Source: a virus
Taxonomy: Duplodnaviria > Heunggongvirae > Uroviricota > Caudoviricetes
IMG/VR virus record: IMGVR_UViG_646564533_000005
DNA length: 64,000 bases
Strand: one strand, 5' to 3'
The notes beneath the pieces were generated by a model that searched no databases, was not told where the DNA came from, and worked only from the letters and a program-made list of their open reading frames with translations. Of this stretch, positions 2,267-54,161 are shown piece by piece (the first letter of the stretch is position 1; every line of letters starts with the position of its first letter). Position numbers and translations under genes: made by a program.

Positions 2267-2562
2267 GCTTTAACCTCCTGCACATCAACCGCATTCACCG
2301 CGCTATTGTGTCTCACAGACTTAAGCGCCGCAATGCAGTCTGACTTGCAAATGCGATATGGGCTTTTAGGTTTATCTGGATTTATCTTTGCGGCCTGAAG
2401 TCGTCCACTTCGTATCCACTGCGTGATAGTGCCTTTGTCTACCTTCAGATACGACGCAGCCTCTTCACGAGTGAAGATTTCTTCTTCCACTTGGAGTCTC
2501 CATTTATTGGATTGACATGATTGCTGTAGGTCTGGATATCTTGAGAAGCTGGCAGGCCTCAT
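2143..2562 (-). CDS. xis: excisionase-like DNA-binding protein (start uncertain, overlaps int 5' end)
   Basis: position immediately upstream of int; helix-turn-helix-like segment EEAASYLKVDKGTITQWIRSGRL. Confidence 0.5.
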   Translation of the reverse strand: MRPASFSRYPDLQQSCQSNKWRLQVEEEIFTREEAASYLKVDKGTITQWIRSGRLQAAKINPDKPKSPYRICKSDCIAALKSVRHNSAVNAVDVQEVKACQSNCAVAHGTAISSRKMDQELDALLKHRTKGKRKNFTIV

Positions 2563-2579
2563 CGAGTGTGAGGCTGTGG

Positions 2580-2924
2580 TTAGTCCTTGCGTAACTCGCT
2601 AATTCTTCTGTAAGTCTCTGGTGCTTTGTTTCCGTGTATCTTCATTTCAGACTTCAACAGAGCAACGAGAGAATCCCATTCGTTGAGGATTCCTTTGAAT
2701 GCCGGAACGCGCTTTGCAACCTTGTCGAATGAATCTCTGATTTCTGGAATCTGCTCAACAAGTGCAACGCATCGTCTGAAATCGGCTGCGTCATGTGGAG
2801 CACCGAAGCTATGACCATAGATATTCTTTTTCAGGCCACATGCGATTGAGGCAAGAGTTGCGCTACTGATGCCGACATCGCCAGTCGATTGCCATTTCAA
2901 AACCTTCATAGCCAAATCTGACAT
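2580..2924 (-). CDS. hypothetical prophage early-region protein
   Basis: 114-aa ORF co-oriented with the early leftward operon. Confidence 0.45.
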   Translation of the reverse strand: MSDLAMKVLKWQSTGDVGISSATLASIACGLKKNIYGHSFGAPHDAADFRRCVALVEQIPEIRDSFDKVAKRVPAFKGILNEWDSLVALLKSEMKIHGNKAPETYRRISELRKD

Positions 2925-3024
2925 TTCTTGTCTCCATAAAACAAAACCCGCCGTAGCGAGTTCAGATAAAAGAAATCCCCGCGAGTGCGAGGATTGTTAT
3001 TCACCTTTGACGGCAAGTTGCAGG

Positions 3025-3789
3025 TTAGCCACGGTTAACTCCTTGCTGTGTGGCGTCGAGTAATAAATCCCACAACCGCTGAGAGCAATTTCCGCATGTA
3101 CAGCGTTGACCCACAACGTTTATCGCGTTGCTGATTTCCGGCGTTACCTGTTTAGGAACCATAACCCAACCATCCGGAGTTACCGGAAGCGAGAACGGCA
3201 GCACATCTCTGTGAACAAGTTTTTGCTGTGACAGGTTATCCAGAACTTTCTGTACTGCTGCATCACCGAATACACCAAGCGCATCTGCCATAACTCCTAC
3301 AACCTGATAAGCCTCAGCGCATACCGTGGATAAACCATCCGGAGTTACCGGAGAGTTGCCGGGTTCTTTAATGTGCAAGCGAGGCTCACCATCTTTTGGC
3401 TCAGGCCACTGGCGCTCCATGTTGATCTTCAATTTATCTTCCATAGCAGCGGTAATTTCAGCATCGCTGATGCCGGCACGGCGCTGTGCATCCCACAACA
3501 GAAACTGCATATCAGCCCACTCGCTAAGATCGTCTGGTTCGGCTGCGGCTTCCAGAGCCTCTTTTGAGAGGTGTTTCAGTGGACCAATGGGGCCAACGCA
3601 GCCAAATGTGGAGTCAGACCATTTGGCATGCTCGTGGCGAATCTGTTCGCGTTCCAGTGAGGCGAGAGCGATTTTAAATGCTGTAAGCATGTGTGCTTGA
3701 TCGTTGTCGAGTCCGAATGGCATTTCATCTCGTGCTGACTCAATACTGGTAATCGTATTTTGTAGCCATTCTTTGGTAAAAGTGCTCAT
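3025..3789 (-). CDS. hypothetical prophage protein (possibly DUF550/DUF551-type)
   Basis: 254-aa ORF in the leftward operon; family assignment from memory only. Confidence 0.45.
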   Translation of the reverse strand: MSTFTKEWLQNTITSIESARDEMPFGLDNDQAHMLTAFKIALASLEREQIRHEHAKWSDSTFGCVGPIGPLKHLSKEALEAAAEPDDLSEWADMQFLLWDAQRRAGISDAEITAAMEDKLKINMERQWPEPKDGEPRLHIKEPGNSPVTPDGLSTVCAEAYQVVGVMADALGVFGDAAVQKVLDNLSQQKLVHRDVLPFSLPVTPDGWVMVPKQVTPEISNAINVVGQRCTCGNCSQRLWDLLLDATQQGVNRG

Positions 3790-4292
3790 CGTAAAATATC
3801 CTCTATACTGGTAAGTCCTTCATTATTTAGCCAGATCATGGCGTCATCCGGCAACTTGCTGTCTGGTTTGGCGTTTTTGAGAGAGGAACTCAGTCGCTTA
3901 ATCCACATTGTCACCTCAGTAATGCGCCTGTCTTTGCCTTCCAGCTCAACACGCAGCTTCCCTACCGTTAGCGCAATTTCCTCGCTCTCTTGGTCGCGTG
4001 ATTTGATGTATTGCTGGTTTCTTTCCCGTTCATCCAGCAGTGCCAAGACGGTAGCAGGATTGGCTGCGGCGATGAATTCAGCATTGGCCTGCTGTTCCAT
4101 TTGGAAATCTTCATCGAAACCGCTTTCTGGATGCGCTCCTTCAATTCTGCAAATAGGAATATATCCAGCAACTTCACGATGAATTAGCGCATCATCACCA
4201 TCAAATCGGCTCTCTCCATATTCGAGCGACCGCTCACCACACGTTGCTTTTTCTGCCGCCTCACGCAGTGCCTGAGAGTTAATTTCGCTCAC
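3786..4292 (-). CDS. Ead/Ea22-like prophage protein (tentative)
   Basis: 168-aa ORF with acidic N-terminus and coiled-coil C-terminus; 4-nt overlap with the downstream gene. Confidence 0.45.
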   Translation of the reverse strand: MSEINSQALREAAEKATCGERSLEYGESRFDGDDALIHREVAGYIPICRIEGAHPESGFDEDFQMEQQANAEFIAAANPATVLALLDERERNQQYIKSRDQESEEIALTVGKLRVELEGKDRRITEVTMWIKRLSSSLKNAKPDSKLPDDAMIWLNNEGLTSIEDILR

Positions 4293-4510
4293 TTCGAACC
4301 TCTCTGTTTACTGATAAGCTCCAGATCCTTCTGGCAACTTGCACAAGTCCGACAACCCTGAACGGCCAGACGTCTTAGTTCATCTATCGGATCGCCACAC
4401 TCACAACAATGAGTGGCAGATATAGCCTGGTGGTTCAGGCGGTGCATTTTTATTGCTGTGTTGCGCTGTAATTCTTCAATTTCTGATGCTGAATCAATGA
4501 TGTCTGCCAT
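4289..4510 (-). CDS. TraR/DksA-family C4 zinc-finger protein
   Basis: 73 aa with CxxC...CxxC (CCECGDPI...CRTCASC). Confidence 0.7.
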   Translation of the reverse strand: MADIIDSASEIEELQRNTAIKMHRLNHQAISATHCCECGDPIDELRRLAVQGCRTCASCQKDLELISKQRGSK

Positions 4511-4608
4511 CTTCCATTAATCCCTGAATTGTTGGTTAATACGCTTGAGAGTGAATGCGAATAATAAAAAAGGAGCCTGTAGCTCCCTGATGATTTTGCT
4601 TTTCATGT

Positions 4609-4890
4609 TCACCGTTCCTTAAAGACGCCGTTTAACATACCGATTGCCAGACTTAAGTGAGTCGGTGTGAATCCCATCAGCGTTACCGTTTCGCGGTGCT
4701 TCTTCAGTACGCTACGGCAAATGTCATCGACGTTTTTATCCGGAAACTGCTGTCTGGCTTTTTTGATTTCAGAATTAGCCTGACGGGCAATACTGCGAAG
4801 GGCGTTTTCTTGCTGAGGTGTCATTGAACAAGTCCCATGTCGGCAAGCATAAGCACACAGAATATGAAGCCCGCTGCCAGAAAAATGCAT
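4609..4890 (-). CDS. hypothetical small prophage protein (true start probably internal)
   Basis: ORF track only. Confidence 0.35.
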   Translation of the reverse strand: MHFSGSGLHILCAYACRHGTCSMTPQQENALRSIARQANSEIKKARQQFPDKNVDDICRSVLKKHRETVTLMGFTPTHLSLAIGMLNGVFKER

Positions 4891-4900
4891 TCAGTGGTTG

Positions 4901-5092
4901 TCATACCAGGTCTCTCTCATCTGCTTCTGCTTTCGCCACCATCATTTCCAGCTTTTGCGAAAGGGATGTGGCTAACGTATGAAATTCTTCGTCTGTTTCT
5001 ACTGGTATTGGCACAAACCTGACTCCAATTTGAGCAAGGCTATGTGCCATCTCAATACTCGTTCTTAACTCAACAGGAGATGCTTTGTGCAT
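4901..5092 (-). CDS. hypothetical small prophage protein
   Basis: ORF track only. Confidence 0.35.
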   Translation of the reverse strand: MHKASPVELRTSIEMAHSLAQIGVRFVPIPVETDEEFHTLATSLSQKLEMMVAKAEADERDLV

Positions 5093-5243
5093 ATCGCCTC
5101 CCGTTTATTATTTATCTCCTCAGCCAGCCGCTGGGCTTTCAGCGGATTTCGGATAACAGAAAGGCCGGGAAATACCCAGCCTCGCTTCGTAACGGAGTAG
5201 ACGAAAGTGATCGTGCCTACGCGGATATTATCGTGAGGATGCG

Positions 5244-5924
5244 TCATCGCCATTGCTCCCCAAATACAAAACCAATTTCAGCCAGTGCCTCGTCCATTTT
5301 TTCGATGAACTCCGGCACCATCTCGTCAAAACCCGCCATGTACTTTTCATCCCGCTCAACCACGACATAATGCAGGCCTTCACGCTTCATACGCGGGTCA
5401 TAGTTGGCAAAGTACCAGGCATCTTTTCGCGTCACCCACATGCTGTACTGCACCTGGGCCATGTAAGCCGACTTTATGGCCTCGAAACCACCGAGCCTGA
5501 ACTTCATGAAATCCCGGGAGGTAAACGGGCATTTCAGCTCAAGGCCGTTGCCGTCACTGCATAAACCATCGGGAGAGCAGGCGGTGCGCATACTTTCGTC
5601 GCGATAGATGATCGGGGATTCAGTAACATTCACGCCGGAAGTGAATTCAAACAGGGTTCTGGCGTCGTTCTCGTACTGTTTTCCCCAGGCCAGCGCCTTA
5701 GCATTAACTTCCGGAGCCACACCGGTGCAAACCTCAGCCAGCAGGGTGTGGAAGTAGGACATTTTCATGTCAGGCCACTTCTTTCCTGAGCGGGGCTTTG
5801 CTATCACGTTGTGAACTTCTGAAGCGGTGATGACGCCGAGCCGTAATTTGTGCCATGCATCATCCCCCTGTTCGACAGCTCTCACGTCGATCCCGGTACG
5901 CTGCAGGATAATGTCCGGTGTCAT
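5244..5924 (-). CDS. exo: lambda-type 5'-3' exonuclease (Red alpha)
   Basis: 226-aa translation matches lambda Exo as recalled; 4-nt overlap with bet. Confidence 0.95.
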
Positions 5925-6706
5925 GCTGCCACCTTCTGCTCAGTGGCTTTCTGTTTCAGGAATCCAAGAGCTTTCACTGCTTCGGCCTGTGTCAGTTCTG
6001 ACGATGCGCGAATGTCGCGGCGAAATATCTGGGAACAGAGCGGCAATAAGTCGTCATCCCATGTTTTATCCAGGGCGATTAGCAGAGTGTTAATCTCCTG
6101 CATGGTTTCATCGTTAACCGGAGTGATGTCGCGTTCCGGCTGGCGTTCTGCAGTGTATGCAGTATTTTCGACAATGCGCTCGGCTTCATCCTTGTCATAG
6201 ATACCAGCAAATCCGAAGGCCAGACGGGCACACTGAATCATAGCTTTATGCCGTAACATCCGTTTAGGATGCGACTGCCACGGCCCCGTGATTTCTCTGC
6301 CTTCGCGGGTTTTGAATGGTTCGCGGCGGCATTCATCCATCCATTCGGTAACGCAGATCGGATGATTACGGTCCTTGCGGTAAATCCGGCATGTACAGGA
6401 TTCATTGTCCTGCTCAAAGTCCATGCCATCAAACTGCTGGTTTTCATTGATGATGCGGGACCAGCCATCAACGCCCACCACCGGAACGATGCCGTTCTGC
6501 TTATCAGGGAAGGCGTAAATTTCTTTCGTCCACGGATTAAGGCCGTACTGGTTGGCGACGATCAACAATGTGATGAACTGCGCATCGCTGGCATCGCCTT
6601 TAAATGCCGTCTGGCGAAGAGTGGTGATCAGTTCCTGTGGGTCGACAGAATCCATGCCGACACGTTCAGCCAGCTTCCCTGCCAGCGTTGCGAGTGCTGT
6701 ACTCAT
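5921..6706 (-). CDS. bet: lambda-type single-strand annealing protein (Red beta)
   Basis: 261 aa matching lambda Bet; operon position. Confidence 0.95.
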
Positions 6707-6711
6707 CCGTT

Positions 6712-7008
6712 TTATACCTCTGAATCAATATCAACCTGATGGTGAGCAATGGTTTCAACCATGTACCGGATGTGTTCTGCCATGCGCTCCTGAAACTCAA
6801 CATCGTCATCAAACGCACGGGTAATGGCTTTTTTGCTGGCCCCGTGGCGTTGCAAATGACCGATGCATAGCGATTCAAACAGGTGCTGGGGCAGGCCTTT
6901 TTCCATGTCGTCTGCCAGTTCTGCCTCTTTCTCTTCACGGGCTATCTGCTGGTAGTGACGCGCCCAGCTCTGAGCCTCAAGACGATCCTGAATGTAATAA
7001 GCGTTCAT
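6712..7008 (-). CDS. gam: host nuclease inhibitor Gam (short form)
   Basis: 98 aa [21 protein letters not shown]... matches lambda Gam. Confidence 0.9.
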
Positions 7009-7081
7009 GGCCGAACTCCTGAAATAGCTGTGAAAATATCGCCCGCGAAATGCCGGGCTGATTAGGAAAACAGGAAAGGGG

Positions 7082-7225
7082 TTAGTGAATGCTTTTGCTT
7101 GATCTCAGTTTCAGTATTAATATCCATTTTTTATAAGCGTCGACGGCTTCACGAAACATCTTTTCATCGCCAATAAAAGTGGCGATAGTGAATTTAGTCT
7201 GGATAGCCATAAGTGTTTGATCCAT
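7082..7225 (-). CDS. kil: Kil (host cell-division inhibitor), 47 aa
   Basis: internal Met of ORF 7082..7351 gives [24 protein letters not shown]..., matching lambda Kil. Confidence 0.8.
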
Positions 7226-7358
7226 TCTTTGGGACTCCTGGCTGATTAAGTATGTCGATAAGGCGTTTCCATCCGTCACGTAATTTACGGGTGATTCGTT
7301 CAAGTAAAGATTCGGAAGGGCAGCCAGCAACAGGCCACCCTGCAATGGCATATTGCAT
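7194..7358 (-). CDS. cIII: CIII (FtsH inhibitor), 54 aa
   Basis: internal Met of ORF 7194..7460 gives MQYAIAGWPVAGCPSESLLERITRKLRDGW..., matching lambda CIII; overlaps kil as in lambda. Confidence 0.85.
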   Translation of the reverse strand: MQYAIAGWPVAGCPSESLLERITRKLRDGWKRLIDILNQPGVPKNGSNTYGYPD

Positions 7359-7581
7359 GGTGTGCTCCTTATTTATACATAACGAAAAACGCCTCGAGTG
7401 AATCGTTATTGGTATGCATATAAAAAAGCCCTCACATTGGAGGGCAAAGAAGATTTCCAATAATCAGAACAAGTCGGCTCCTGTTTAGTTACGAGCGACA
7501 TTGCTCCGTGTATTCACTCGTTGGAATGAATACACAGTGCAGTGTTTATTCTGTTGTTTATGCCAAAAATAAAGGCCACCA

Positions 7582-7782
7582 TCAGGCAGCCTTGTTTTTC
7601 TGTTTGCCAAGTTCTCTGGCAATCATTGCCGTAGTTCGTATTGCCCATTTATCGACATATTTCCCATCTTCCATTACAGGAAACATTTCTTCAGGCTTAA
7701 CCATGCATTCCGATTGCAGCTTGCATCCATTGCATCGCTTGAATTGTCCACACCATTGATTTTTATCAATAGTCGTAGTCAT
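7582..7782 (-). CDS. ral: Ral restriction-alleviation protein
   Basis: 66 aa MTTTIDKNQWCGQFKRCNGCKLQSECMVKPEEMFPV... matches lambda Ral. Confidence 0.85.
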   Translation of the reverse strand: MTTTIDKNQWCGQFKRCNGCKLQSECMVKPEEMFPVMEDGKYVDKWAIRTTAMIARELGKQKNKAA

Positions 7783-7976
7783 ACGGATAGTCCTGGTATT
7801 GTTCCATCACATCCTGAGGATGCTCTTCGAACTCTTCAAATTCTTCTTCCATATATCACCTTAAATAGTGGATTGCGGTAGTAAAGATTGTGCCTGTCTT
7901 TTAACCACATCAGGCTCGGTGGTTCTCGTGTACCCCTACAGCGAGAAATCGGATAAACTATTACAACCCCTACAGT

Positions 7977-16191: not shown

Positions 16192-16267
16192 GCTGGTTTA
16201 GCTCCAATGGTAGAGCAACTGACTTGTAATCATCAGGTCGCCAGTTCGATTCCGGTAGTCGGCACCA
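16192..16267 (+). tRNA. phage tRNA-like gene (canonical D-arm TAGCTCCAATGGTAGAGC; weak anticodon stem; identity uncertain, possibly degenerate)
   Basis: acceptor stem with G-U pairs, T-arm TTCGATT, CCA end; loop CTTGTAA. Confidence 0.45.
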
Positions 16268-16977: not shown

Positions 16978-18819
16978 ATGTCGATTAATCGTTACGATAT
17001 TGTGCGGGCAGCATCGCCATCAGATCTGGCGGACAAGCTCACGCAAAAACTGAAAGAAGGCTGGCAGCCGTTTGGTAGCCCTGTGGCCATAACTCCTTAT
17101 ACCCTGATGCAGGCGATTGCAGCAGAAGGTGATGTGGTGGTCAGTGGCACAACTGAGCCGGAGTGGTACTACGTGGTCGTGCTGGCCGGACAGTCCAATG
17201 CCATGTCTTATGGTGAGGGTATTCCTCTTCCTGATTCATATGATGCGCCTGATCCGCGTATTAAGCAGTTGGCACGTCGCAGTACGGTGACGCCTGGCGG
17301 AGAGGCATGTGTATTTAACGATGTGATCCCGGCAGATCATTGTCTGCATGATGTGCAGGATATGAGTGTGTTCAGTCACCCTGAAGCAGATTTAAGCAAA
17401 GGTCAGTATGGGTGTGTCGGACAGGGCTTACATATCGCCAAACGTCTGCTGCCGTATATCCCAAAAAATGCCGGGATTCTGCTGGTTCCCTGCTCCCGTG
17501 GCGGTTCAGCATTTACAGCAGGGGCGGATGGTACATTCAGTGAAGCTACGGGGGCCAGCCAGAACTCTGCGCGCTGGGGAGTGGGTAAGCCGTTATATCA
17601 GGATCTGATACTGCGTACAAAAGCGGCACTGGCGAAGAATCCTGAAAATGTTCTGCTGGCGGTATGCTGGATGCAGGGTGAATTCGATATGACAAACGCT
17701 GGCTATGCTCAGCAGCCTGCAGCATTCCAGTCGATGGTGCAGCAGTTCCGTAGCGACCTTGCCGGTATGGCGGCGCAGTGTCATGGTGGAAGCGCTCAAA
17801 AAGTGCCGTGGATTTGTGGTGACACCACATACATCTGGAAACAGAAGTACGCCACACAATATGAGGCGGTGTATGGCGCTTATAAAGGAAAGGAAGCACA
17901 GAATATTTTCTTTGTTCCTTTTATGACAGGTGGCAGTGGTGAAAACACGCCCACGAATGAGCCGACGGAAGATCCGGATATCGTGGCTGCCGGTTATTAC
18001 GGGGCGGCATCCCGGACATCGGCCAACTGGACGTCAGCAGACCGTGCGAGCCATTTCAGTGCCTGGGCACGGCGTGGGATTATTGCAGACAGAATGGCCT
18101 CGGCTATCCTGTCGCAGGCAGGGCGCTCACAGGCATTTATTGCCGGTGTAAAACCGGAGAACACACCATCAGCAGGTGGCTCTACGTCGCCGGATGACTC
18201 ATCCCTGGAATCGATATCGCTTCTGGCCTCCGCCGGCGATGTTGCTTCTCAGGGGTGGAGTATTACCGGGGGCAGCGTTCAGTTATCGGATGGCGTACTG
18301 AGAATTGTCAAAGAGAGCGGTAAAAGCTGGATACTATCGCATCCGGTGAAGAATGCATCCTCACTGCTGAGCCGGGGAGGGAAGCTGACCTGTAAGTTCC
18401 GTCTGACTGGTGCTCTGACAAACAACCAGTTTGGACTGGGGCTTTATCTGTACACAGACGCTCCTGTTCCTGATGGTGTGACGATAACGGGGACTGGTGA
18501 TCCGTTCCTGATGTCGTACTTTACGCAGACCACCGACGGCAAACTGAATCTGATGCACCACAGGAAGTCAGGAAACACGAAGCTGGGGGAATTCGGGAAC
18601 TACAGTAACGACTGGCAGGCGCTGGAGCTGGTGTTCACCGCCGGCAGTGCCACGGTTACTCCGAAACTGAATGGAGTGGCTGGCCCGGCATTCCAGGTTA
18701 TAAAAGACAGTCTGACACTGGGACTGAATGCGCTGACGCTGACGGATGTTACAAAAAATGCAGCGTATGGCGTTGAGATAGAAAGTCTGGTGCTGGAGAT
18801 AAATGCACCGGCAGCATAA
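16978..18819 (+). CDS. nanS: prophage NanS-p-like sialate O-acetylesterase (DUF1737 N-terminus plus esterase domain)
   Basis: N-terminus MSINRYDIVRAASPSDLADKLTQKLKEGWQPFGSP typical of 933W-type NanS-p as recalled; located downstream of Q-tRNA as in Stx phages. Confidence 0.75.
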   Translation: MSINRYDIVRAASPSDLADKLTQKLKEGWQPFGSPVAITPYTLMQAIAAEGDVVVSGTTEPEWYYVVVLAGQSNAMSYGEGIPLPDSYDAPDPRIKQLARRSTVTPGGEACVFNDVIPADHCLHDVQDMSVFSHPEADLSKGQYGCVGQGLHIAKRLLPYIPKNAGILLVPCSRGGSAFTAGADGTFSEATGASQNSARWGVGKPLYQDLILRTKAALAKNPENVLLAVCWMQGEFDMTNAGYAQQPAAFQSMVQQFRSDLAGMAAQCHGGSAQKVPWICGDTTYIWKQKYATQYEAVYGAYKGKEAQNIFFVPFMTGGSGENTPTNEPTEDPDIVAAGYYGAASRTSANWTSADRASHFSAWARRGIIADRMASAILSQAGRSQAFIAGVKPENTPSAGGSTSPDDSSLESISLLASAGDVASQGWSITGGSVQLSDGVLRIVKESGKSWILSHPVKNASSLLSRGGKLTCKFRLTGALTNNQFGLGLYLYTDAPVPDGVTITGTGDPFLMSYFTQTTDGKLNLMHHRKSGNTKLGEFGNYSNDWQALELVFTAGSATVTPKLNGVAGPAFQVIKDSLTLGLNALTLTDVTKNAAYGVEIESLVLEINAPAA

Positions 18820-19265: not shown

Positions 19266-19472
19266 ATGGAAAAAATCACAACAGGTGTGTCATACACCAC
19301 GTCAGCGGTGGGGACGGGATACTGGTTACTGCAGCTGCTGGACAAAGTCTCTCCGTCCCAGTGGGTGGCAATAGGTGTGCTGGGAAGTCTGCTGTTTGGC
19401 CTGCTGACGTATCTGACAAATCTTTATTTCAAGATTAAAGAAGATAAGCGTAAGGCTGCGAGAGGTGAATAA
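19266..19472 (+). CDS. S: holin, phage 21 S-type (pinholin)
   Basis: 68 aa with two TMDs, [25 protein letters not shown]...; TAATG junction with R. Confidence 0.85.
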
Positions 19473-19969
19473 TGTCGCCGTCATTACGCAAGGCTGTTGC
19501 AGCTGCTATTGGTGGTGGGGCTGTTGCCATAGCGTCTGTGCTCATCACTGGTCCAGGTGGTAACGATGGTCTGGAAGGTGTCAGCTACATACCATACAAA
19601 GATATCGTTGGCGTATGGACTGTATGTCACGGACACACCGGAAAAGACATCATGCCCGGTAAAACGTATACCGAAGCAGAATGCAAAGCCCTCCTGAATA
19701 AAGACCTTGCCACGGTCGCCAGACAAATTAACCCGTACATCAAAGTCGATATACCGGAAACAACGCGCGGCGCTCTTTACTCGTTCGTTTACAACGTGGG
19801 CGCTGGCAATTTCAGAACATCGACGCTTCTTCGCAAAATAAACCAGGGTGATATCAAAGGCGCATGTGATCAGCTACGGCGCTGGACATACGCTGGCGGT
19901 AAGCAATGGAAAGGGCTGATGACTCGCCGCGAGATTGAGCGTGAAGTCTGTTTGTGGGGGCAACAATGA
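19472..19969 (+). CDS. R: SAR-endolysin (lysozyme, R21 type)
   Basis: N-terminal Gly/Ala-rich SAR segment, catalytic E...D...T context of T4-lysozyme-like fold. Confidence 0.85.
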
Positions 19970-20430
19970 GCAGGGTAACCGTTATTATCTCCGCTCTGGT
20001 TATCTGCATTATCGCCTGCCTGTCATGGGCTGTTAATCATTACCGCGACAATGCCATTACCTACAAAGCCCAGCGCGACAAAAATGCCAGAGAACTGAAG
20101 CTGGCGAATGCGGTAATTACTGACATGCAGATGCGTCAGCGTGATGTTGCTGCGCTCGATGCAAAATACACGAAGGAGTTAGCTGATGCGAAAGCTGAAA
20201 ATGATGCTCTGCGTGATGATGTTGCCGCTGGTCGTCGTCGGTTGCACATCAAAGCAGTCTGTCAGTCAGTGCGTGAAGCCACCACCGCCTCCGGCGTGGA
20301 TAATGCAGCCTCCCCCCGACTGGCAGACACCGCTGAACGGGATTATTTCATCCTCAGAGAACGGCTGATGACAATGCAGAAGCAACTGGAAGGAGCACAG
20401 GAATATATCCGTACCCAGTGTATACCGTGA
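19966..20430 (+). CDS. Rz: i-spanin Rz
   Basis: N-terminal TMD plus coiled coil; ATGA overlap with R. Confidence 0.85.
20186..20368 (+). CDS. Rz1: o-spanin Rz1 lipoprotein, embedded in Rz in the +1 frame
   Basis: lipobox LVVVGC, proline-rich (PPPPPAW...PPPDW), wholly inside Rz. Confidence 0.8.
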
Positions 20431-20894
20431 TGTTTTGTTATGAAGGTGTTACTGGTAACGTTAAGGTAATTTAACAAAAAGTCAGTTCCGGACTTTATAG
20501 TGTGCTCAGATCATGGCCAAAAACGATTTCTGTGATAAATATTTTGAATATTATTTACAGATAAATGAAGTTGTTCGCATGGATGGAAATATTACAATAG
20601 AGTATGAAGTATATGTCCGTATTGTATGGGCAGAGAAGGCAAAAACACGGTAATTCCTTGTGTTGCCATTATACCTGATTGGCAGAATAGTTGTTTGGTT
20701 TTGAGTATATAGTCAGCGTTTTTTGTTCAGTAATAGCTCTCTCAAAAAATAATAAAATAAGGTGATTATTTGGGTTTATTATTTAGTTTTTTTGTGTGTT
20801 GTTTTGTTGTTTTTCTGTGATTTATTTTTTATTGTTATTTCATTAAAGGAAGGTAAATTCAGGATAGCAGTCTGTAGATAATCGGAGGTCACTT

Positions 20895-21209
20895 ATGCTA
20901 CATGATCACCTGGCAGAATGTCTGGAGAAAAAAGGACTGTACCGGAGAGCAGCTGAACGATGGGCAAAAGTGATGGTACAGCTAAGTGATGACCAGAAAA
21001 GAAAAGTGGCGGCACAGAAACGAGCAGAGTGTTTGCGTAAGGCGCGCCGGACTCCGGTTTCACCGATGAACCTGACAGAAATAAAACAAGCGGTCAACAG
21101 ACTACATTCTGAGTTGGGAATGGGATTTGAAGAGCGGCGGGTATTCCGACGATATAAAGGGACAGGAGAACAGAATACGTCCGGAAACGCGCGGTCAAAA
21201 AAATGCTAA
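20895..21209 (+). CDS. PerC/Pch-family transcriptional activator-like protein
   Basis: LEKKGLYRRAAERW...QKRAECLRKAR resembles the PerC family motif as recalled; preceded by about 430 bp of very AT-rich DNA. Confidence 0.55.
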   Translation: MLHDHLAECLEKKGLYRRAAERWAKVMVQLSDDQKRKVAAQKRAECLRKARRTPVSPMNLTEIKQAVNRLHSELGMGFEERRVFRRYKGTGEQNTSGNARSKKC

Positions 21210-21289
21210 AAAATATCTGAGAGAGTTATTGCCTGTTACCATAATAAAAAGCGACTTTAGTGGTCGCTTTTGTGTCATATATAAGTCAT

Positions 21290-21526
21290 TTAAGTAAACC
21301 TGTCTGAACAGGTGCTCTGGTCGTGTTTGTCTTTGTTGGGTAAAAATTGAGAATATTTTTCATTAATTAATCTTCTTCTGCAGGCTTCAATAACCCACGC
21401 TGAAAAATTCCCTGAACCTTTCTGGTCAAGAGCAATATTAATTTGTTCAATCATCTGGTTTGGAAATCGGATGTTGCGGGTTGTTGTTCTTCGGGTTCTG
21501 TTCTTCGATGACATAATGTTGCTCAT
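21290..21526 (-). CDS. YlcI/YnfO-family (DUF3950) small protein
   Basis: MSNIMSSKNRTRRTTTRNIRFPNQMIEQINIALDQKGSGNFSAWVIEACRRRL matches DLP12 YlcI as recalled. Confidence 0.55.
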   Translation of the reverse strand: MSNIMSSKNRTRRTTTRNIRFPNQMIEQINIALDQKGSGNFSAWVIEACRRRLINEKYSQFLPNKDKHDQSTCSDRFT

Positions 21527-21720
21527 ATTCAGTGTTGCTGATTTGTATTGTATGAAGTTGCTTTTACGTTAAGTTGATGTGGGGCAATTAATACGATATC
21601 TGCGCCATAATTGATTATTTGTCGTTGTTTGATGGCTCACACACATCGTTGTGATGAGCATTATTCACATGAAATTATTATCATTTTTGTGGGTCCTTTC
21701 CGGCGATCCTGCAGGCTACG

Positions 21721-21870
21721 GGGCGGCGACCTCGCGGGTTTTCGCTATTTATGAAAATTTTCCGGGATCCATGTCCGGTTTCTCTGCAAGTTAACTATAT
21801 GAAAAATATAAAAACAGGCTGTCCGTGAACCGGACATGTGCAAAAAACGGACATGTAAACCGGACATGAC
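21721..21870. other. cos site: lambda-type cosN (GGGCGGCGACCT, 21721-21732) plus divergent cosB with repeated CGGACATG elements
   Basis: first about 50 bp matches the lambda left end (GGGCGGCGACCTCGCGGGTTTTCGCTATTTATGAAAATTTTCCGG); four copies of the (C)CGGACATG motif follow. Confidence 0.8.
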
Positions 21871-21915
21871 CGGTTTTGTGCTGATTGTGAGGTAAGAGTT
21901 TTTGCGAGGTGAGGA

Positions 21916-22425
21916 GTGGCTACGCAGACTGAAGTTGCCAGGCATTTGAGTCTGACCGATCGCCAGCTTCGCAGATTGCAGAAATTACCGGGTGCCCCGA
22001 TCTCGAATAAGCGAGGGCAACTGGATCTGGATGCCTGGCGCGATTTTTACATATCGTATCTGAGAAGAAGTAAAAACGATGTGCCTGATGGCGATAGCAA
22101 AGAAGACTATGAAGAGAAATTGCTTATTGCCAGATGGGAACTGACAGCAGAACAGGCTGTTACACAGCAGTTAAAAAATGAGGTGTCAAAAGGAAAACTG
22201 ATTGACACCGGGTTCTGTATTTTTGCCCTCAGTAAGCTGGCAATGGCGTTATCCAGTACGCTTGATTCCATCCCTTTATCCATGCAGCGACAGTTTCCTG
22301 ATTTAACACCGCGCCATCTTGACCATCTGAAAAACCTTATTGCTAAGGGGGCAAATCAGTGTGCGCGGGCAGGGGATAAATTACCGGATTTACTTGATGA
22401 ATATATCAGAGCAACAACTGAATAA
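21916..22425 (+). CDS. nu1: terminase small subunit (Nu1 analogue, non-lambda specificity)
   Basis: 169-aa ORF immediately after cos, GTG start with SD; C-terminal part weakly Nu1-like. Confidence 0.65.
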   Translation: MATQTEVARHLSLTDRQLRRLQKLPGAPISNKRGQLDLDAWRDFYISYLRRSKNDVPDGDSKEDYEEKLLIARWELTAEQAVTQQLKNEVSKGKLIDTGFCIFALSKLAMALSSTLDSIPLSMQRQFPDLTPRHLDHLKNLIAKGANQCARAGDKLPDLLDEYIRATTE

Positions 22426-24325
22426 TATGATGAGCGCTGTCACAACTGCATTACAGCCCCTGATAAGGGCATTGCCGGTGACGCCAGTTGAATGGGCTGA
22501 TCAAAATTATTATCTGCCTAAAGAATCTTCATATGGTGAGGGAGAATGGAAAACGCTGCCATTCCAGATCGCCATCATGAACAGCATGGGGAATGATCAG
22601 ATCCGCACTGTTAATCTGATTAAATCTGCCCGTGTTGGCTATACAAAGATGTTGCTGGGGGTGGTCGGGTATTTTATTGAGCATAAATCCCGAAACAGTC
22701 TGCTTTTTCAGCCCACGGATTCTGCCGCTGAAGATTTTATGAAGTCTCACGTGGAGGCGACGATTCGGGACGTGCCATGCCTGAAAGTCATTTCCCCATG
22801 GCTGGGACGTAAACATCGTGACAATACTCTCACGCTGAAACGCTTTTCATCTGGCGTCGGTTTCTGGTGCCTGGGCGGCGCTGCCGCCAAAAACTACCGT
22901 GAAAAATCCGTGGATGTGGTCTGCTATGACGAACTTTCCTCGTTCGAACCGGATGTCGAAAAAGAGGGCTCGCCAACCCTGCTGGGGGATAAACGTATTG
23001 AGGGCTCTGTATGGCCAAAATCCATTCGCGGCTCAACGCCTAAAATCAAAGGCACCTGTCAGATCGAAAAAGCCGCTAACGAGTCGGCACATTTCATGCG
23101 TTTTTATGTGCCCTGCCCGCATTGTGGGGAGGAGCAGTATCTGAAATTTGGCGATGAGTCCACGCCTTTTGGCCTTAAATGGGAGAAGGACAGACCCGAA
23201 AGTGCTTTCTACCTTTGTGAGCATCATGGCTGTGTGATCCATCAGTCTGAGCTTGACCAGAGTAACGGGCGGTGGATCTGTGAAAACTCGGGCATGTGGA
23301 CCCGTGACGGCCTGATGTTTTTCAGCGCCCGGGGTGATGAAATTCCGCCGCCGCGCTCCATCACGTTCCATATCTGGACTGCGTACAGTCCGTTCACCAC
23401 CTGGGTACAGATAGTCTATGACTGGCTGGATGCACTGAAAGATCCCAACGGCGTGAAAACCTTTGTGAACACCACGCTGGGCGAGACCTGGGAAGAGGCC
23501 GTGGGCGAAAAACTCGATCACCAGGTACTGATGGATAAGGTTGTTCATTACACGGCGGCGGTGCCTGCCCGGGCGGTTTATCTGACGGCGGGCATTGACT
23601 CGCAGCGAAACCGTTTTGAGATGTATGTCTGGGGATGGGCTCCGGGAGAGGAAGCCTTTCTGGTGGATAAAATCATTATTATGGGACGTCCCGATGAAGA
23701 AGAGACGCTGTTACGTGTGGATGCGGCGATCAATAAAAAATACCGTCATGCAGACGGAACAGAAATGACCATTTCCCGTATCTGCTGGGACATCGGGGGG
23801 ATCGATGGCGAAATCGTTTATCAGAGGTCAAAAAAACACGGTGTTTTCCGGGTGCTGCCGGTAAAAGGCGCATCTGTCTATGGCAAGCCGGTGATCACCA
23901 TGCCAAAAAACCGCAATCAGCGGGGTGTGTATCTGTGTGAAGTGGGGACGGACACCGCAAAAGAAATTCTTTATGCCCGTATGAAAGCCGATCCCACACC
24001 TGCAGATGAAGCCACATCGTATGCCATCCGTTTTCCTGATGATCCGGATATTTTTTCGCAGACAGAGGCGCAGCAACTGGTGGCGGAAGAGCTTGTGGAG
24101 AAGTGGGAAAAAGGAAAGATGCGCCTGCTGTGGGATAACAAAAAGCGGCGTAACGAAGCGCTGGACTGCCTGGTGTATGCCTACGCGGCATTACGTGTGT
24201 CCGTGCAACGCTGGCAGCTTGATCTGGCTGTACTGGCAAAATCCCGGGAGGAAGAGACGACCCGGCCAACCCTTGAAGAACTGGCAGCGAAGCTGTCCGG
24301 AGGAGTGAATGGTAACAGTCGCTGA
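22397..24325 (+). CDS. A: terminase large subunit (gpA)
   Basis: near-collinear with lambda gpA (Walker A and endonuclease regions). Confidence 0.95.
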   Translation: MNISEQQLNNMMSAVTTALQPLIRALPVTPVEWADQNYYLPKESSYGEGEWKTLPFQIAIMNSMGNDQIRTVNLIKSARVGYTKMLLGVVGYFIEHKSRNSLLFQPTDSAAEDFMKSHVEATIRDVPCLKVISPWLGRKHRDNTLTLKRFSSGVGFWCLGGAAAKNYREKSVDVVCYDELSSFEPDVEKEGSPTLLGDKRIEGSVWPKSIRGSTPKIKGTCQIEKAANESAHFMRFYVPCPHCGEEQYLKFGDESTPFGLKWEKDRPESAFYLCEHHGCVIHQSELDQSNGRWICENSGMWTRDGLMFFSARGDEIPPPRSITFHIWTAYSPFTTWVQIVYDWLDALKDPNGVKTFVNTTLGETWEEAVGEKLDHQVLMDKVVHYTAAVPARAVYLTAGIDSQRNRFEMYVWGWAPGEEAFLVDKIIIMGRPDEEETLLRVDAAINKKYRHADGTEMTISRICWDIGGIDGEIVYQRSKKHGVFRVLPVKGASVYGKPVITMPKNRNQRGVYLCEVGTDTAKEILYARMKADPTPADEATSYAIRFPDDPDIFSQTEAQQLVAEELVEKWEKGKMRLLWDNKKRRNEALDCLVYAYAALRVSVQRWQLDLAVLAKSREEETTRPTLEELAAKLSGGVNGNSR

Positions 24326-24515
24326 ACTGCAGGCGCTGCGTCAGGCGCGCCTTGATTTATTAACCGGTAAACGGGTGGTGTCGGTCCAGAAAGACGGTCG
24401 CAGAATTGAATATACGGCAGCCTCTCTGGATGAGCTTAACCGTGCGATCAATGATGCGGAGTCAGTTCTGGGGACAACCCACCGCCGCCGTCGTCCGCTG
24501 GGAGTGAGGTTATGA
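24309..24515 (+). CDS. W: head-tail joining protein W
   Basis: 68 aa, ...LLTGKRVVSVQKDGRRIEYTAASLDEL... lambda gpW-like. Confidence 0.8.
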   Translation: MVTVAELQALRQARLDLLTGKRVVSVQKDGRRIEYTAASLDELNRAINDAESVLGTTHRRRRPLGVRL

Positions 24516-26104
24516 AACGAACGCCAGTCCTGATTGATGTGAATGGCGTTCCGCTTCGTGAGAGTCTCAGCTACAACGGGGGCGGCGCAGGATTTGGCGG
24601 GCAAATGGCGGAGTGGTTACCACCGGCGCAGAGTGCTGATGCGGCTCTGTTGCCTGCATTGCGTCTGGGGAATGCCCGGGCAGATGATCTGGTACGCAAT
24701 AACGGTATCGCGGCCAATGCAGTGGCCCTGCATAAGGATCATATTGTCGGGCACATGTTTCTTATCAGTTACCGTCCCAACTGGCGCTGGCTTGGGATGC
24801 GGGAGACCTCAGCAAAAAGTTTTGTCGATGAGGTGGAAGCGGCCTGGTCGGAATATGCAGAAGGGATGTTTGGCGAGATCGATGCGGAAGGTAAACGCAC
24901 ATTTACGGAGTTTATCCGTGAAGGTGTGGGCGTTCATGCGTTTAACGGCGAAATCTTTGTGCAGCCGGTCTGGGATACGGAGACCACGCAGTTATTTCGT
25001 ACGCGTTTTAAAGCCGTAAGTCCGAAACGGGTGGACACGCCAGGACACGGTATAGGGAACCGCTTTCTGCGGGCCGGGGTGGAGGTCGATCGGTATGGAC
25101 GGGCCGTTGCGTACCATATCTGTGAGGATGATTTTCCGTCCTCTGGAAGTGGACGCTGGGAGCGGATCCCGCGTGAACTTCTCACCGGACGTCCGGCCAT
25201 GCTGCATATTTTCGAGCCGGTGGAGGATGGGCAGAGTCGTGGGGCTAATCAGTTTTATAGCGTCATGGAGCGTCTGAAGATGCTCGACTCCCTGCAGGCC
25301 ACGCAGCTCCAGTCGGCCATAGTGAAAGCCATGTATGCGGCCACAATCGAAAGTGAACTTGATACTGAAAAAGCATTTGAATATATCGCGGGTGCGCCGC
25401 AAGGTCAGCAGGATAATCCGCTTATTAATATTCTGGAGAAGTTCACCCGCTGGTATGACACGAATAACGTGACGCTGGGCGGCGTCAAAATTCCGCACCT
25501 TTTTCCCGGGGATGATCTGAAACTGCAGACTGCGCAGGATTCAGACAATGGATTTTCTGCGCTTGAACAGGCGTTGTTGCGGTATATAGCCGCCGGTCTT
25601 GGCGTTTCCTACGAACAGTTGTCCCGTGATTACTCGAAGGTCAGTTACTCAAGTGCCCGCGCCTCAGCCAATGAGTCGTGGCGTTATTTTATGGGACGGC
25701 GAAAATTTATTGCTTCCCGGCTGGCCACGCAGATGTTTTCCTGCTGGCTGGAAGAGGCGCTTCTTCGGGGAATTATCCGCCTGCCACGGGCGCGTTTTGA
25801 TTTTTATCAGGCGCGTTCTGCCTGGTCACGGGCAGAGTGGATTGGTTCAGGAAGAATGGCCATTGACGGGCTCAAGGAGGTTCAGGAATCAGTGATGCGC
25901 ATTGAGGCCGGACTGAGCACGTATGAGAAAGAGCTGGCGCTGATGGGTGAGGATTATCAGGAGATTTTCCGCCAGCAGGTCAGGGAATCTGCAGAGCGGG
26001 AAAAAGCCGGACTCTCACGTCCGGTGTGGATAGCGCAGGCGTATCAGCAGCAGATAGCGGAGAGTCGCAGGCCGGAAGAGGAGACAACACCACGTGAGAC
26101 GTAA
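24512..26104 (+). CDS. B: portal protein (gpB)
   Basis: 530 aa, lambda gpB-like. Confidence 0.95.
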   Translation: MKRTPVLIDVNGVPLRESLSYNGGGAGFGGQMAEWLPPAQSADAALLPALRLGNARADDLVRNNGIAANAVALHKDHIVGHMFLISYRPNWRWLGMRETSAKSFVDEVEAAWSEYAEGMFGEIDAEGKRTFTEFIREGVGVHAFNGEIFVQPVWDTETTQLFRTRFKAVSPKRVDTPGHGIGNRFLRAGVEVDRYGRAVAYHICEDDFPSSGSGRWERIPRELLTGRPAMLHIFEPVEDGQSRGANQFYSVMERLKMLDSLQATQLQSAIVKAMYAATIESELDTEKAFEYIAGAPQGQQDNPLINILEKFTRWYDTNNVTLGGVKIPHLFPGDDLKLQTAQDSDNGFSALEQALLRYIAAGLGVSYEQLSRDYSKVSYSSARASANESWRYFMGRRKFIASRLATQMFSCWLEEALLRGIIRLPRARFDFYQARSAWSRAEWIGSGRMAIDGLKEVQESVMRIEAGLSTYEKELALMGEDYQEIFRQQVRESAEREKAGLSRPVWIAQAYQQQIAESRRPEEETTPRET

Positions 26105-53572: not shown

Positions 53573-54094
53573 TTGAAAGCGCAATTAATTTATCCTGAAT
53601 ATGATCAAGTCATTGTTTCAAGAGAACTTGAGAAAGCAGAGCAAGATATTGAATCATCGAAAGATATATTGAAAGGTATTGTTGATGCACTTGATGATAA
53701 GAAGCAATTATTAAAAGAGTTAAGTGATGAATTATATTCAATCAGTGACAGGGAAAAATACTTATCATTACTCATTGAAAGATTTAGTCTTCTTAAAGAC
53801 CAATACTTTATAGATCTACAAAGAATAGATGTTGTATCACAGGCGAATTTCTATTTAAATAATTTTGCAGATATTTATTGTGAGTTCTGTAATACACCGC
53901 AAAAAAAAGAAAATGAAATATCATATGATGATTGTTTTTTGTCGTGTAATGCAGAAAAATTGAAAATCAAAAGCCAGCTGAAAGGATTAATTGAATCAAT
54001 CGGATCTAATGTTCGCGAACATGAATTAATTATGTTAAGAAAAAATGATGTTAATGAAATTTATCAAGCAGAAAAAGTGATTTTAAGACGTTAG
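53573..54094 (+). CDS. coiled-coil segment (probable ATPase arm), same frame as the preceding fragment
   Basis: heptad-rich Lys/Glu sequence; TTG start without SD; same frame as 53363..53551. Confidence 0.4.
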   Translation: MKAQLIYPEYDQVIVSRELEKAEQDIESSKDILKGIVDALDDKKQLLKELSDELYSISDREKYLSLLIERFSLLKDQYFIDLQRIDVVSQANFYLNNFADIYCEFCNTPQKKENEISYDDCFLSCNAEKLKIKSQLKGLIESIGSNVREHELIMLRKNDVNEIYQAEKVILRR

Positions 54095-54161
54095 AAGATA
54101 AAAATATAAAACAATACATTCATCTCTTGAATCACTTTATGAATATAAAGACAATCTTTTA

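What the first reader, a model, noticed from the sequence alone, without database searches (positions are those of the whole stretch)
20440..21209. PerC/Pch-like regulator with a long AT-rich upstream region downstream of the lysis cassette
Where lambda has bor, this prophage has a 104-aa ORF with a PerC-like motif (LEKKGLYRRAAERW) preceded by about 430 bp of very AT-rich DNA with long T/A runs, typical of H-NS-silenced, horizontally acquired promoters. Pch/PerC proteins activate LEE virulence genes in EHEC/EPEC, which fits the effector cargo of the same prophage.
Basis: partly seen in the sequence, partly recalled or inferred. Interest (0 to 1): 0.45.

Follow-up and report, generated by a model that had tools for sequence, protein, structure and literature searches.

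The report
Known LEE activator gene pchC
This is the well-studied prophage gene pch (the PchC allele), which switches on the gut-attachment (LEE) virulence genes of EHEC-type E. coli, sitting with its AT-rich control region in its usual place between the phage lysis genes and the packaging site, so the finding is correct but ordinary.

Summary
The ORF at 20895-21209 (+) encodes a 104-aa protein. It matches Pfam PerC over the full length (E 2e-44) and is 100% identical to PchC of E. coli O157:H7 Sakai (99% PchB, 98% PchA). The window is E. coli O55:H7 STEC strain 2013C-4465 (NZ_CP015241.1), where RefSeq already annotates a PerC family regulator. The gene follows a 464-bp spacer of 31% GC (window 48%) that is rich in T/A runs. 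Spacer, gene and terminator hairpin form a ~970-bp cassette that occupies the slot holding borD-ybcV-ybcW in K-12 DLP12, about 510 bp before cosN. All three Sakai copies have the same layout. Published work shows that PchC activates a ler reporter, that Pch displaces H-NS at LEE1, and that pchC rises about 8-fold on SOS induction. The prophage carries NleG and EspM2 effector genes plus an espW pseudogene, with nleB in the degraded element beyond. H-NS silencing of the pch promoter itself is plausible but untested here, and an H-NS motif scan showed no enrichment. Novelty: already known. Interest is low.

The parts
20409..21379 (.). pch cassette (moron-like insert): variable last 22 bp of Rz, AT-rich spacer, pch, terminator hairpin, and the 3' end of the ylcI-like gene
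   Evidence: BLASTN against K-12 DLP12: homology covers window 19266-20408 (91%) and 21380-21765 (86%). The 971 bp between them replace 1761 bp holding borD-ybcV-ybcW.
19966..20430 (+). Rz (i-spanin), with Rz1/RzoD embedded at 20186-20368; last genes of the lysis cassette upstream of the finding
   Evidence: Pfam Phage_lysis E 2.6e-53. Annotated as 'lysis protein' in RM12579. rzoD is annotated in NZ_CP015241.1.
20431..20894 (+). AT-rich spacer: presumed pch promoter/regulatory region and 5' leader (TSS not determined here)
   Evidence: 31.2% GC and enriched A/T runs. Nearly identical to the region upstream of Sakai pchC and 90-97% identical to those of pchA and pchB. The upstream region of pchA is used as the native, Lrp/butyrate-responsive promoter in PMC7279287. 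LrhA control of pchA/pchB is reported in PMC4456613.
20731..20850 (+). T-rich core (59% T in 20750-20850); the most variable part of the cassette among copies
   Evidence: 18-30 variable columns per 30 bp here against 0-2 in the CDS, over 53 haplotypes from 79 full-length copies (76 IMG/VR loci plus the three Sakai genes). pchB differs most here.
20513..20653 (+). 46-codon ORF inside the spacer; probably not a constrained coding gene
   Evidence: Matches phrog_2157 over the full length (E 1.4e-35) and is open in 77 of 80 sequences counted (79 copies plus the window itself). But it has no SD, its differences are mostly non-synonymous (pN/pS about 1.6 against 0.1 for pch), and it is never found apart from pch.
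20884..20888 (+). Shine-Dalgarno GGAGG of pch
   Evidence: Read directly from the sequence, 6 nt before the ATG. Partly paired in predicted folds.
20895..21209 (+). pch CDS (PchC allele), 104 aa, PerC family transcriptional activator
   Evidence: Pfam PerC E 2.2e-44. 100% identical to Sakai ECs_2737 PchC. RefSeq WP_001302690.1 'PerC family transcriptional regulator'. The CDS is nearly invariant across 79 copies.
20990..20999 (+). Candidate anti-SD / DicF target inside the CDS (UGACC + ACCAGAAA)
   Evidence: UGACC (20990-20994) is complementary to GGUCA of the SD region (20887-20891). ACCAGAAA (20992-20999) is a perfect complement of the DicF 5' end UUUCUGGU taken from K-12. The stretch is invariant in pchA, pchB and pchC. 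It fits the published mechanism as summarised in PMC7769764; the exact published site could not be read.
21247..21271 (.). Hairpin AAAAGCGAC-UUUAGU-GGUCGCUUUU between convergent pch and ylcI-like genes; probable bidirectional intrinsic terminator
   Evidence: It is a 10-bp stem within an 81-nt fold of -15.7 kcal/mol (z -1.8) and is conserved in all Sakai copies. The consensus terminator scan did not list it.
21290..21514 (-). YlcI/YnfO family (DUF3950) gene, convergent with pch
   Evidence: Pfam DUF3950 E 1e-19. NCBIfam YlcI_YnfO_N. RefSeq WP_013009113.1.
21721..21732 (+). cosN cohesive-end sequence GGGCGGCGACCT; marks the right end of the packaged genome about 510 bp after pch
   Evidence: Sequence read. 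Identity to the lambda cohesive end is from established knowledge. The surrounding 160 bp are conserved in 77 lambdoid phage records. Nu1 follows at 21916-22425.
43167..45878 (.). T3SS effector cargo after the tail fibre genes: NleG, EspW (pseudogene), DUF1076/NleG-like, EspM2. These belong to effector families reported to be co-regulated with the LEE.
   Evidence: RefSeq annotation of NZ_CP015241.1. The link to the Pch/Ler regulon rests on PMC4764244.

Best explanation
The ORF is a group-1 pch gene (pchA/B/C, also called PerC1), specifically the PchC allele. It is carried as a small cassette at the right end of a lambdoid prophage integrated next to a tRNA-Thr gene, beside proA, in E. coli O55:H7 STEC strain 2013C-4465.

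Shown here: family membership, exact identity to PchC, cassette boundaries, AT-rich composition, a conserved SD/anti-SD/DicF-complementary element, the terminator hairpin, and co-residence with effector genes.

From published experiments on the same or near-identical genes: the about 12-kDa protein binds the LEE1 (ler) promoter region and loosens the H-NS/StpA nucleoprotein complex. Ler is then made and turns on the LEE type III secretion system and non-LEE effectors.

Inferred: in the lysogen the gene is transcribed from its own promoter inside the 464-bp AT-rich spacer. Host regulators shown for pchA/pchB (LrhA, Lrp with butyrate, the NtrC/sigma-S pathway) would control it, probably against a background of H-NS repression. 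Translation would be gated by pairing of the SD with a site in the CDS, which the sRNA DicF relieves under low oxygen.

The gene lies on the late-operon strand directly after Rz, with no terminator-like site before it. Q-antiterminated late transcription on prophage induction should therefore also read into it. That would explain the published 8-fold SOS induction of pchC.
For: - Family: Pfam PerC 150 bits, full length.
- Identity: 100% to Sakai PchC, 99% to PchB, 98% to PchA. Diagnostic nucleotides C16/A172/A183 match pchC (PMC5931665).
- Upstream: the 464 bp are nearly identical to those of pchC.
- Synteny: all three Sakai copies show Rz, an approximately 465-bp gap, pch, then the small terminase subunit or its remnant.
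- Cassette: it replaces borD-ybcV-ybcW of DLP12.
- Distribution: 672 of 5426 complete E. coli genomes carry it, median 3 copies.
- Selection: the CDS is under strong purifying selection (pN/pS about 0.1) while the T-rich core varies.
- Late-operon position: no terminator-like site on the + strand between Rz and pch.
- Translation control: the SD is partly sequestered in predicted folds, and a DicF 5'-end complement sits at 20992-20999.
- Host: the strain is an O55:H7 STEC with intimin and tir (PMC9413875).
- Literature: PchC activates ler::lacZ about 5-fold and is induced about 8-fold by an SOS inducer (PMC5931665). Pch removes H-NS from LEE1 (PMC4764244). LrhA, Lrp/butyrate, and the NtrC pathway, reported via sigma-S and the LrhA-Pch network, act on pchA/pchB (PMC4456613, PMC7279287, PMC10714755, PMC13012123). 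The DicF anti-SD mechanism is summarised in PMC7769764 and PMC7873438.
Against: - Nothing contradicts the identification.
- The weak points are all about regulation. No TSS or promoter could be placed: the sigma-70 scan found 2 weak sites against 4.1 expected by chance.
- The H-NS high-affinity motif is not enriched (77 matches against 71 expected window-wide, one weak match in the spacer).
- No H-NS occupancy data for pch upstream DNA were found.
- The folding energy of the translation-initiation region is not unusual (z -0.6).
- The SD partner differs between the pchC-type and pchA-type sequences in my folds, so the DicF mechanism shown for pchA is transferred, not demonstrated.
- One paper credits only PchA and PchB with optimal LEE expression in Sakai (PMC13012123), so a pchC-type copy may contribute little without induction.
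Confidence: 0.93

Rival explanations
1. The gene is intact, but it is essentially a late-operon passenger. Its own promoter would be negligible or fully silenced in the lysogen, so Pch from this copy is made mainly when the prophage is induced. It would then contribute little to steady-state LEE expression.
For: It has the same strand and immediate adjacency to Rz, with no terminator-like site between them. pchC, but not pchA, rose about 8-fold with an SOS-inducing drug (PMC5931665). PMC13012123 states that PchA and PchB are the two copies contributing to optimal LEE expression. No convincing sigma-70 promoter was found in the spacer.
Against: The upstream region of pchA, which is 90-97% identical, works as a native, regulated promoter in reporter constructs (PMC7279287). 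A 464-bp non-coding spacer that is kept in all copies, and a dedicated terminator, are what a self-contained transcription unit looks like. This strain has only 2 pch copies, so each matters more for gene dosage.
Confidence: 0.2
2. It is a PerC-family protein that does not act on the LEE. It would instead behave like PchD (no effect) or PchE (repressor of curli and flagella).
For: The PerC family is functionally heterogeneous. PchD and PchE barely affect ler (PMC5931665, PMC6265319, PMC7369912). EPEC PerC also controls nitrate respiration and the fim switch (PMC5293775).
Against: The protein is identical to PchC, not merely related. PchC, PchB and PchA each activated ler at least 4-fold in the same assay in which PchD and PchE did not. 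Extra targets would add to LEE activation, not replace it.
Confidence: 0.03
3. The AT-rich spacer is not a dedicated H-NS-silenced promoter. It would be decayed or leftover DNA, for example the remnant of a small gene (the 46-codon ORF, phrog_2157), whose composition is incidental.
For: The ORF is open in 77 of 80 sequences counted (79 copies plus the window) and forms a PHROG family. The H-NS motif is not enriched. The distal half (20431-20730) is better conserved than the promoter-proximal T-rich core.
Against: The ORF has pN/pS of about 1.6, has no SD, and never occurs without pch. The E. albertii homologue sits in a different context and lacks the distal spacer, yet it still has a 27.5% GC stretch directly upstream. 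Published regulator effects (LrhA, Lrp) act on pchA/pchB transcription.
Confidence: 0.1

Closest known systems
PchC (ECs_2737) of prophage Sp14, E. coli O157:H7 Sakai
   Same: Identical 104-aa protein. Nearly identical 464-bp upstream region and terminator. Same position between Rz and the terminase small subunit.
   Different: The host prophage and integration site differ: beside a tRNA-Thr gene next to proA in O55:H7 here, against serU for Sp14. There are a few SNPs in the non-coding flanks.
PchA (ECs_1091, Sp4) and PchB (ECs_2182, Sp11), the best-studied LEE1 activators of EHEC
   Same: 98% and 99% protein identity, the same cassette and the same synteny. Function is interchangeable in ler reporter assays (PMC5931665).
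   Different: Substitutions are L6V plus M58V (PchA) and M58V (PchB). The T-rich promoter-proximal core of pchB is clearly different, which fits the reported differential regulation of pchA and pchB by LrhA (title of Honda et al. 2009, cited in PMC4456613). In Sp4 the lysis-pch block lies in the opposite orientation to the flanking late and packaging genes, next to IS629 copies.
PerC of the EPEC pEAF plasmid (perABC operon)
   Same: Same Pfam family. Both activate the LEE1 promoter and are functionally interchangeable with PchABC (PMC5293775, PMC4332760).
   Different: PerC is plasmid-borne in an operon with perA and perB, under PerA control. This gene is a single-gene prophage cassette. Requirement also differs: LEE expression depends on Pch in EHEC, but on PerC only conditionally in EPEC (PMC4764244).
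Lambda bor / DLP12 borD-ybcV-ybcW (lysogenic-conversion genes between Rz and cos)
   Same: Same genomic slot. It is accessory cargo that is not needed for phage growth and benefits the lysogen.
   Different: The gene content and strand are unrelated. bor is a lipoprotein gene on the opposite strand. pch is a regulator gene on the late-operon strand.

Membership tests
PerC family (Pfam PF06069) | Significant full-length match to the family profile above the curated threshold | tested here: met
   150.1 bits against a cutoff of 22.6, E 2.2e-44, residues 1-89 on profile positions 1-89 of 90. Also phrog_994 at E 2e-45.
Group-1 Pch (PchA/B/C = PerC1) of EHEC | 104-aa protein at least 98% identical to PchA/B/C; the alleles are told apart by CDS nucleotides 16, 172 and 183 | tested here: met
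   100% to PchC, 99% to PchB, 98% to PchA. C16/A172/A183 is the pchC pattern (definition in PMC5931665).
Group-1 Pch (PchA/B/C = PerC1) of EHEC | Carried on a lambdoid prophage between the lysis cassette and cos/terminase | tested here: met
   Order is holin-lysozyme-Rz/Rz1, spacer, pch, ylcI-like gene, cosN, Nu1. The Rz-spacer-pch arrangement is the same in Sakai Sp4, Sp11 and Sp14, with terminase genes following.
Group-1 Pch (PchA/B/C = PerC1) of EHEC | Activates the LEE1/ler promoter | not testable with these tools
   Published for the pchC allele, defined by the same three diagnostic nucleotides: ler::lacZ at 7,783 against 1,577 Miller units (PMC5931665).
Group-1 Pch (PchA/B/C = PerC1) of EHEC | The target (LEE island) is present in the same genome | not tested
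   Not checked in the sequence. PMC9413875 reports intimin, tir and non-LEE effectors in all ten O55:H7 closed genomes, including 2013C-4465. T3SS effector genes are in the window.
Group-1 Pch (PchA/B/C = PerC1) of EHEC | SD sequestered by an anti-SD in the CDS and released by DicF (shown for pchA) | tested here: inconclusive
   Complementary elements are present and invariant in all copies (GGUCA/UGACC; ACCAGAAA against DicF UUUCUGGU). But the fold is not unusually stable (z -0.6), the primary paper could not be read, and there is no dicF in the window.
H-NS-silenced horizontally acquired promoter | AT content well above the genome average over a few hundred bp | tested here: met
   31.2% GC against 48.4%; the core is 23.6% GC. 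A/T runs are enriched, P = 0.009.
H-NS-silenced horizontally acquired promoter | High-affinity H-NS nucleation motif (TCGATAAATT-like) | tested here: not met
   One 2-mismatch match in the spacer. Window-wide there are 77 matches against 71 expected.
H-NS-silenced horizontally acquired promoter | H-NS occupancy and derepression in an hns mutant | not testable with these tools
   No such data for pch upstream DNA in PMC4764244 or its held supplements.
Phage moron (autonomous accessory transcription unit) | Present or absent between conserved flanks in related phages, with atypical composition and its own terminator | tested here: met
   Sharp homology breaks at 20408 and 21380 against DLP12. 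The spacer is AT-rich. There is a hairpin terminator at 21247-21271. An own promoter was not demonstrated here.

The most novel reading that the evidence does not exclude
The better-conserved distal half of the spacer (20431-20730) contains the 46-codon ORF (phrog_2157), which stays open in 77 of 80 sequences counted. This stretch could be a functional leader, either a small protein or upstream ORF, or a long structured 5' UTR. It would set how much Pch is made, separately from the variable T-rich promoter-proximal core. A related, less novel possibility is that late-operon read-through couples LEE activation to prophage induction.
Probability: 0.08. Interest if true: 0.3.

Novelty: already known. 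Interest (0 to 1): 0.08.

Why it matters
Pch proteins are the switch that lets EHEC and related strains express the LEE type III secretion system, and pch copy number matters for virulence. Finding a PchC-identical copy in an O55:H7 STEC prophage, next to effector genes, fits the accepted picture that prophages deliver both effectors and their regulator. It adds nothing new. The gene is annotated in RefSeq, the allele has been assayed, and the locus architecture is the same as in Sakai. The only open points are where transcription starts in the AT-rich spacer, whether H-NS sits on it, and how much late-operon read-through contributes. These are refinements of a known system.

Tried and rejected
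- **Promoter and terminator scan of 20300-21950.** It gave 2 weak promoter-like sites against 4.1 expected and missed the obvious hairpin. It cannot place the pch promoter.
- **H-NS high-affinity motif scan.** No enrichment.
- **Rfam on the whole window.** Nothing in or near the pch cassette and no DicF. DicF is also absent from the dicB region of Sakai Sp14, so it was taken from K-12 Qin.
- **RNAduplex of DicF with pch mRNA.** It gives unrealistically long duplexes. Only the 8-nt perfect seed complement was kept as a lead.
- **The 46-codon ORF as a gene.** It hits a PHROG. I set it aside because pN/pS is about 1.6, it has no SD, and it never occurs without pch.
- **Structure.** No PDB relative by sequence. 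The single-sequence AlphaFold2 model had pLDDT 50 (all-helical, unusable), so no fold search was run. I ran no further search on an MSA because it could not change the verdict.
- **Phage collection.** It holds only two unannotated fragments with this DNA, so pch lives in prophages rather than in sequenced free phages.
- **Genome-contig scan.** It found only E. albertii (90%) and an Escherichia sp. (76%), because a single-protein query finds close relatives only.
- **Melson & Kendall 2019.** The paper could not be opened.
- **Supplement search for H-NS ChIP data at pch.** It returned strain tables only.

Full report
**Observation**

It lies at 20895-21209 on the + strand, is 104 aa long, starts with ATG, and has a GGAGG Shine-Dalgarno 6 nt upstream. 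The quoted motif LEKKGLYRRAAERW is residues 10-23.

The gene follows the lysis cassette: a P21-type holin at 19266-19472, lysozyme at 19472-19969, and Rz at 19966-20430 with Rz1 embedded at 20186-20368.

The non-coding gap from the Rz stop to the ATG is 464 bp, slightly more than the stated 430.
- Its GC is 31.2% against 48.4% for the window, in the lowest 4% of equal-sized windows.
- The core 20700-20860 is 23.6% GC and 51% T.
- A/T runs of 5 or more occur 8 times, against 3.2 +/- 1.6 in shuffles of the same composition (P = 0.009).

**Identity**

The protein matches Pfam PerC (PF06069) over the full length at 150 bits, with a cutoff of 22.6 (E 2.2e-44).

The 870 bp around it are 100% identical to E. 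coli O55:H7 genomes. A 24.7-kb stretch of the window (21300-46000) matches strain 2013C-4465 (NZ_CP015241.1) at 100%, so the window corresponds to 3260400-3324399 of that record. RefSeq annotates this CDS there as WP_001302690.1, 'PerC family transcriptional regulator'.

- The window protein is 100% identical to PchC, 99% to PchB (M58V) and 98% to PchA (L6V, M58V).
- The CDS carries C16, A172 and A183. These are the three nucleotide positions that PMC5931665 gives as the only differences between pchA, pchB and pchC.
- The upstream 464 bp and the downstream hairpin are also nearly identical to those of pchC.

**Architecture**

All three Sakai copies have the same layout as the window: Rz, a gap of about 465 bp, then pch. 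In Sp11 and Sp14 an intact small terminase subunit follows. In Sp4 the terminase genes lie further on, past IS elements, with a truncated small-subunit ORF.

Against the K-12 cryptic prophage DLP12, homology covers window 19266-20408 (holin to Rz, 91%) and 21380-21765 (ylcI to cos, 86%). The 971 bp between them replace 1761 bp that hold borD, ybcV and ybcW. The unit behaves like a moron-type cassette of spacer, gene and terminator.

A hairpin at 21247-21271 (AAAAGCGAC/GUCGCUUUU) lies between pch and a convergent YlcI/YnfO-family gene at 21290-21514 on the - strand. It looks like a bidirectional terminator.

The lambda-type cohesive end GGGCGGCGACCT is at 21721-21732 (identity to lambda cos is from established knowledge; the region is shared by 77 lambdoid phage records). 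In a packaged genome, pch would therefore be the last + strand gene before the right end.

**Distribution and variation**

The 870-bp region occurs in 672 of 5426 complete E. coli genomes, with a median of 3 copies per genome. This strain has 2.

I compared 79 full-length copies (76 IMG/VR loci plus the three Sakai genes), which gave 53 haplotypes. The CDS is almost invariant and encodes only the three known protein alleles. The T-rich core 20731-20850 is the most variable part. Against the most divergent copy, pN/pS is about 0.1 for pch.

In E. albertii a 90% identical homologue sits in a different context. It lacks the distal spacer but still has a 27.5% GC stretch directly upstream.

**Function (from the literature)**

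- Group-1 pch genes are needed for full ler and LEE expression and for adherence (Iyoda & Watanabe 2004, as cited in PMC6265319 and PMC4456613).
- They are interchangeable with EPEC PerC (Porter et al. 2005, as cited in PMC5293775).
- Plasmid-expressed PchC raised a chromosomal ler::lacZ fusion in K-12 from 1,577 to 7,783 Miller units, while PchD and PchE did little (PMC5931665).
- Pch binds LEE1 DNA and reduces H-NS/StpA occupancy there, so it acts as an anti-silencer (PMC4764244).
- Strain 2013C-4465 is an stx1a-positive O55:H7 with intimin and tir (PMC9413875), so the target is present.
- Immediately after the tail fibre genes lie NleG, an EspW pseudogene, a DUF1076/NleG-like gene and EspM2.

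**Regulation: what is shown and what is inferred**

Published work places LrhA, Lrp with butyrate, and the NtrC pathway, reported via sigma-S and the LrhA-Pch network, upstream of pchA/pchB. The region upstream of pchA is used as a native regulated promoter (PMC4456613, PMC7279287, PMC10714755, PMC13012123).

I could not place a promoter computationally. I also found no TSS in the papers I could read.

The idea that H-NS silences the pch promoter rests on composition only. The high-affinity H-NS motif is not enriched, and no occupancy data were found.

For translation, reviews describe an SD/anti-SD hairpin in pchA mRNA that the sRNA DicF opens under low oxygen (PMC7769764, PMC7873438).
- In the window, GGUCA of the SD region (20887-20891) is complementary to UGACC at 20990-20994.
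- That site overlaps a perfect 8-nt complement (ACCAGAAA, 20992-20999) of the DicF 5' end.
- These bases are invariant in pchA, pchB and pchC.
- This fits the published model, but it is not a test of it. The fold is not unusually stable (z -0.6), and the L6V codon changes which partner the SD prefers in my folds.

Finally, pch lies on the late-operon strand with no terminator-like site after Rz. Q-antiterminated transcription should therefore reach it on induction. That would explain the 8-fold, pchC-specific rise after an SOS-inducing drug (PMC5931665).

**The small ORF in the spacer**

A 46-codon ORF at 20513-20653 matches phrog_2157 over the full length. It is open in 77 of 80 sequences counted, that is the 79 copies plus the window itself. 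However, it has no SD, its differences are mostly non-synonymous (pN/pS about 1.6), and it is never found without pch. I treat it as a probable non-gene and keep it only as the most novel reading that remains.

**Verdict**

The finding is real and correctly interpreted, and it is already known. It is an exact PchC allele in a sequenced, annotated O55:H7 STEC strain, with the same locus architecture as in the reference EHEC genome. Interest is low.

Noticed in passing
window 51452-54728 (+), inside the P4-like element 50267-~62000: Lamassu-type anti-phage defence genes follow the P4-like integrase, but they look degraded. LmuA is split into two ORFs, LmuC is intact, and LmuB is split into three ORFs (padloc). 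This is also the lowest-GC stretch of the window (about 26%). C4 antisense RNA and isrK lie at 57967-58200.
   Followed up: partly
window 16978-18819 (+): A 613-aa protein with DUF1737, a SASA (sialate O-acetylesterase) domain and DUF6645 sits just after Q and the tRNA genes, in the slot where Stx phages carry stx. It resembles the NanS-p esterases of Stx prophages (the resemblance is from memory).
   Followed up: no
window 16192-16264 (+): A third tRNA-like Rfam hit (47 bits) lies between tRNA-Asn and tRNA-Gly. Neither ARAGORN nor RefSeq calls it. It may be a degenerate tRNA.
   Followed up: partly
window 21721-21732 (+): The lambda-type cohesive end GGGCGGCGACCT (cosN) lies about 510 bp after pch and about 185 bp before Nu1. 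This makes pch the last + strand gene of the packaged genome.
   Followed up: partly
window 19966-20430 (+): The Rz (i-spanin) ORF is intact with a strong Pfam hit, but it is not annotated in NZ_CP015241.1, where only rzoD is. It is annotated in RM12579.
   Followed up: yes
window 22397-26104 (+): The terminase large subunit, head-tail joining and portal genes are intact in this strain. In O55:H7 RM12579 (and, judging by 92% coverage, DEC5D and TB182A) a deletion leaves truncated terminase and portal pseudogenes side by side. The prophage here therefore looks more complete.
   Followed up: partly
window 46126-49636: Beyond the effector cargo lies a remnant of another element: a tail-fibre-assembly fragment, an integrase fragment, an NleB-family glycosyltransferase (46878-47858) and a T3SS protein pseudogene with an internal stop.
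   Followed up: no
window 7313-7371 (-): The lambda cIII thermoregulator RNA element is present (Rfam RF01804, 88.5 bits), which shows how lambda-like the early region is.
   Followed up: no
L004 22131-24728 (Sakai Sp4): In Sakai Sp4 the holin-endolysin-Rz-pchA block lies on the opposite strand to the flanking late and packaging genes, next to IS629 copies. Here pchA is no longer downstream of the late promoter. That might relate to pchA not responding to SOS induction in PMC5931665.
   Followed up: no
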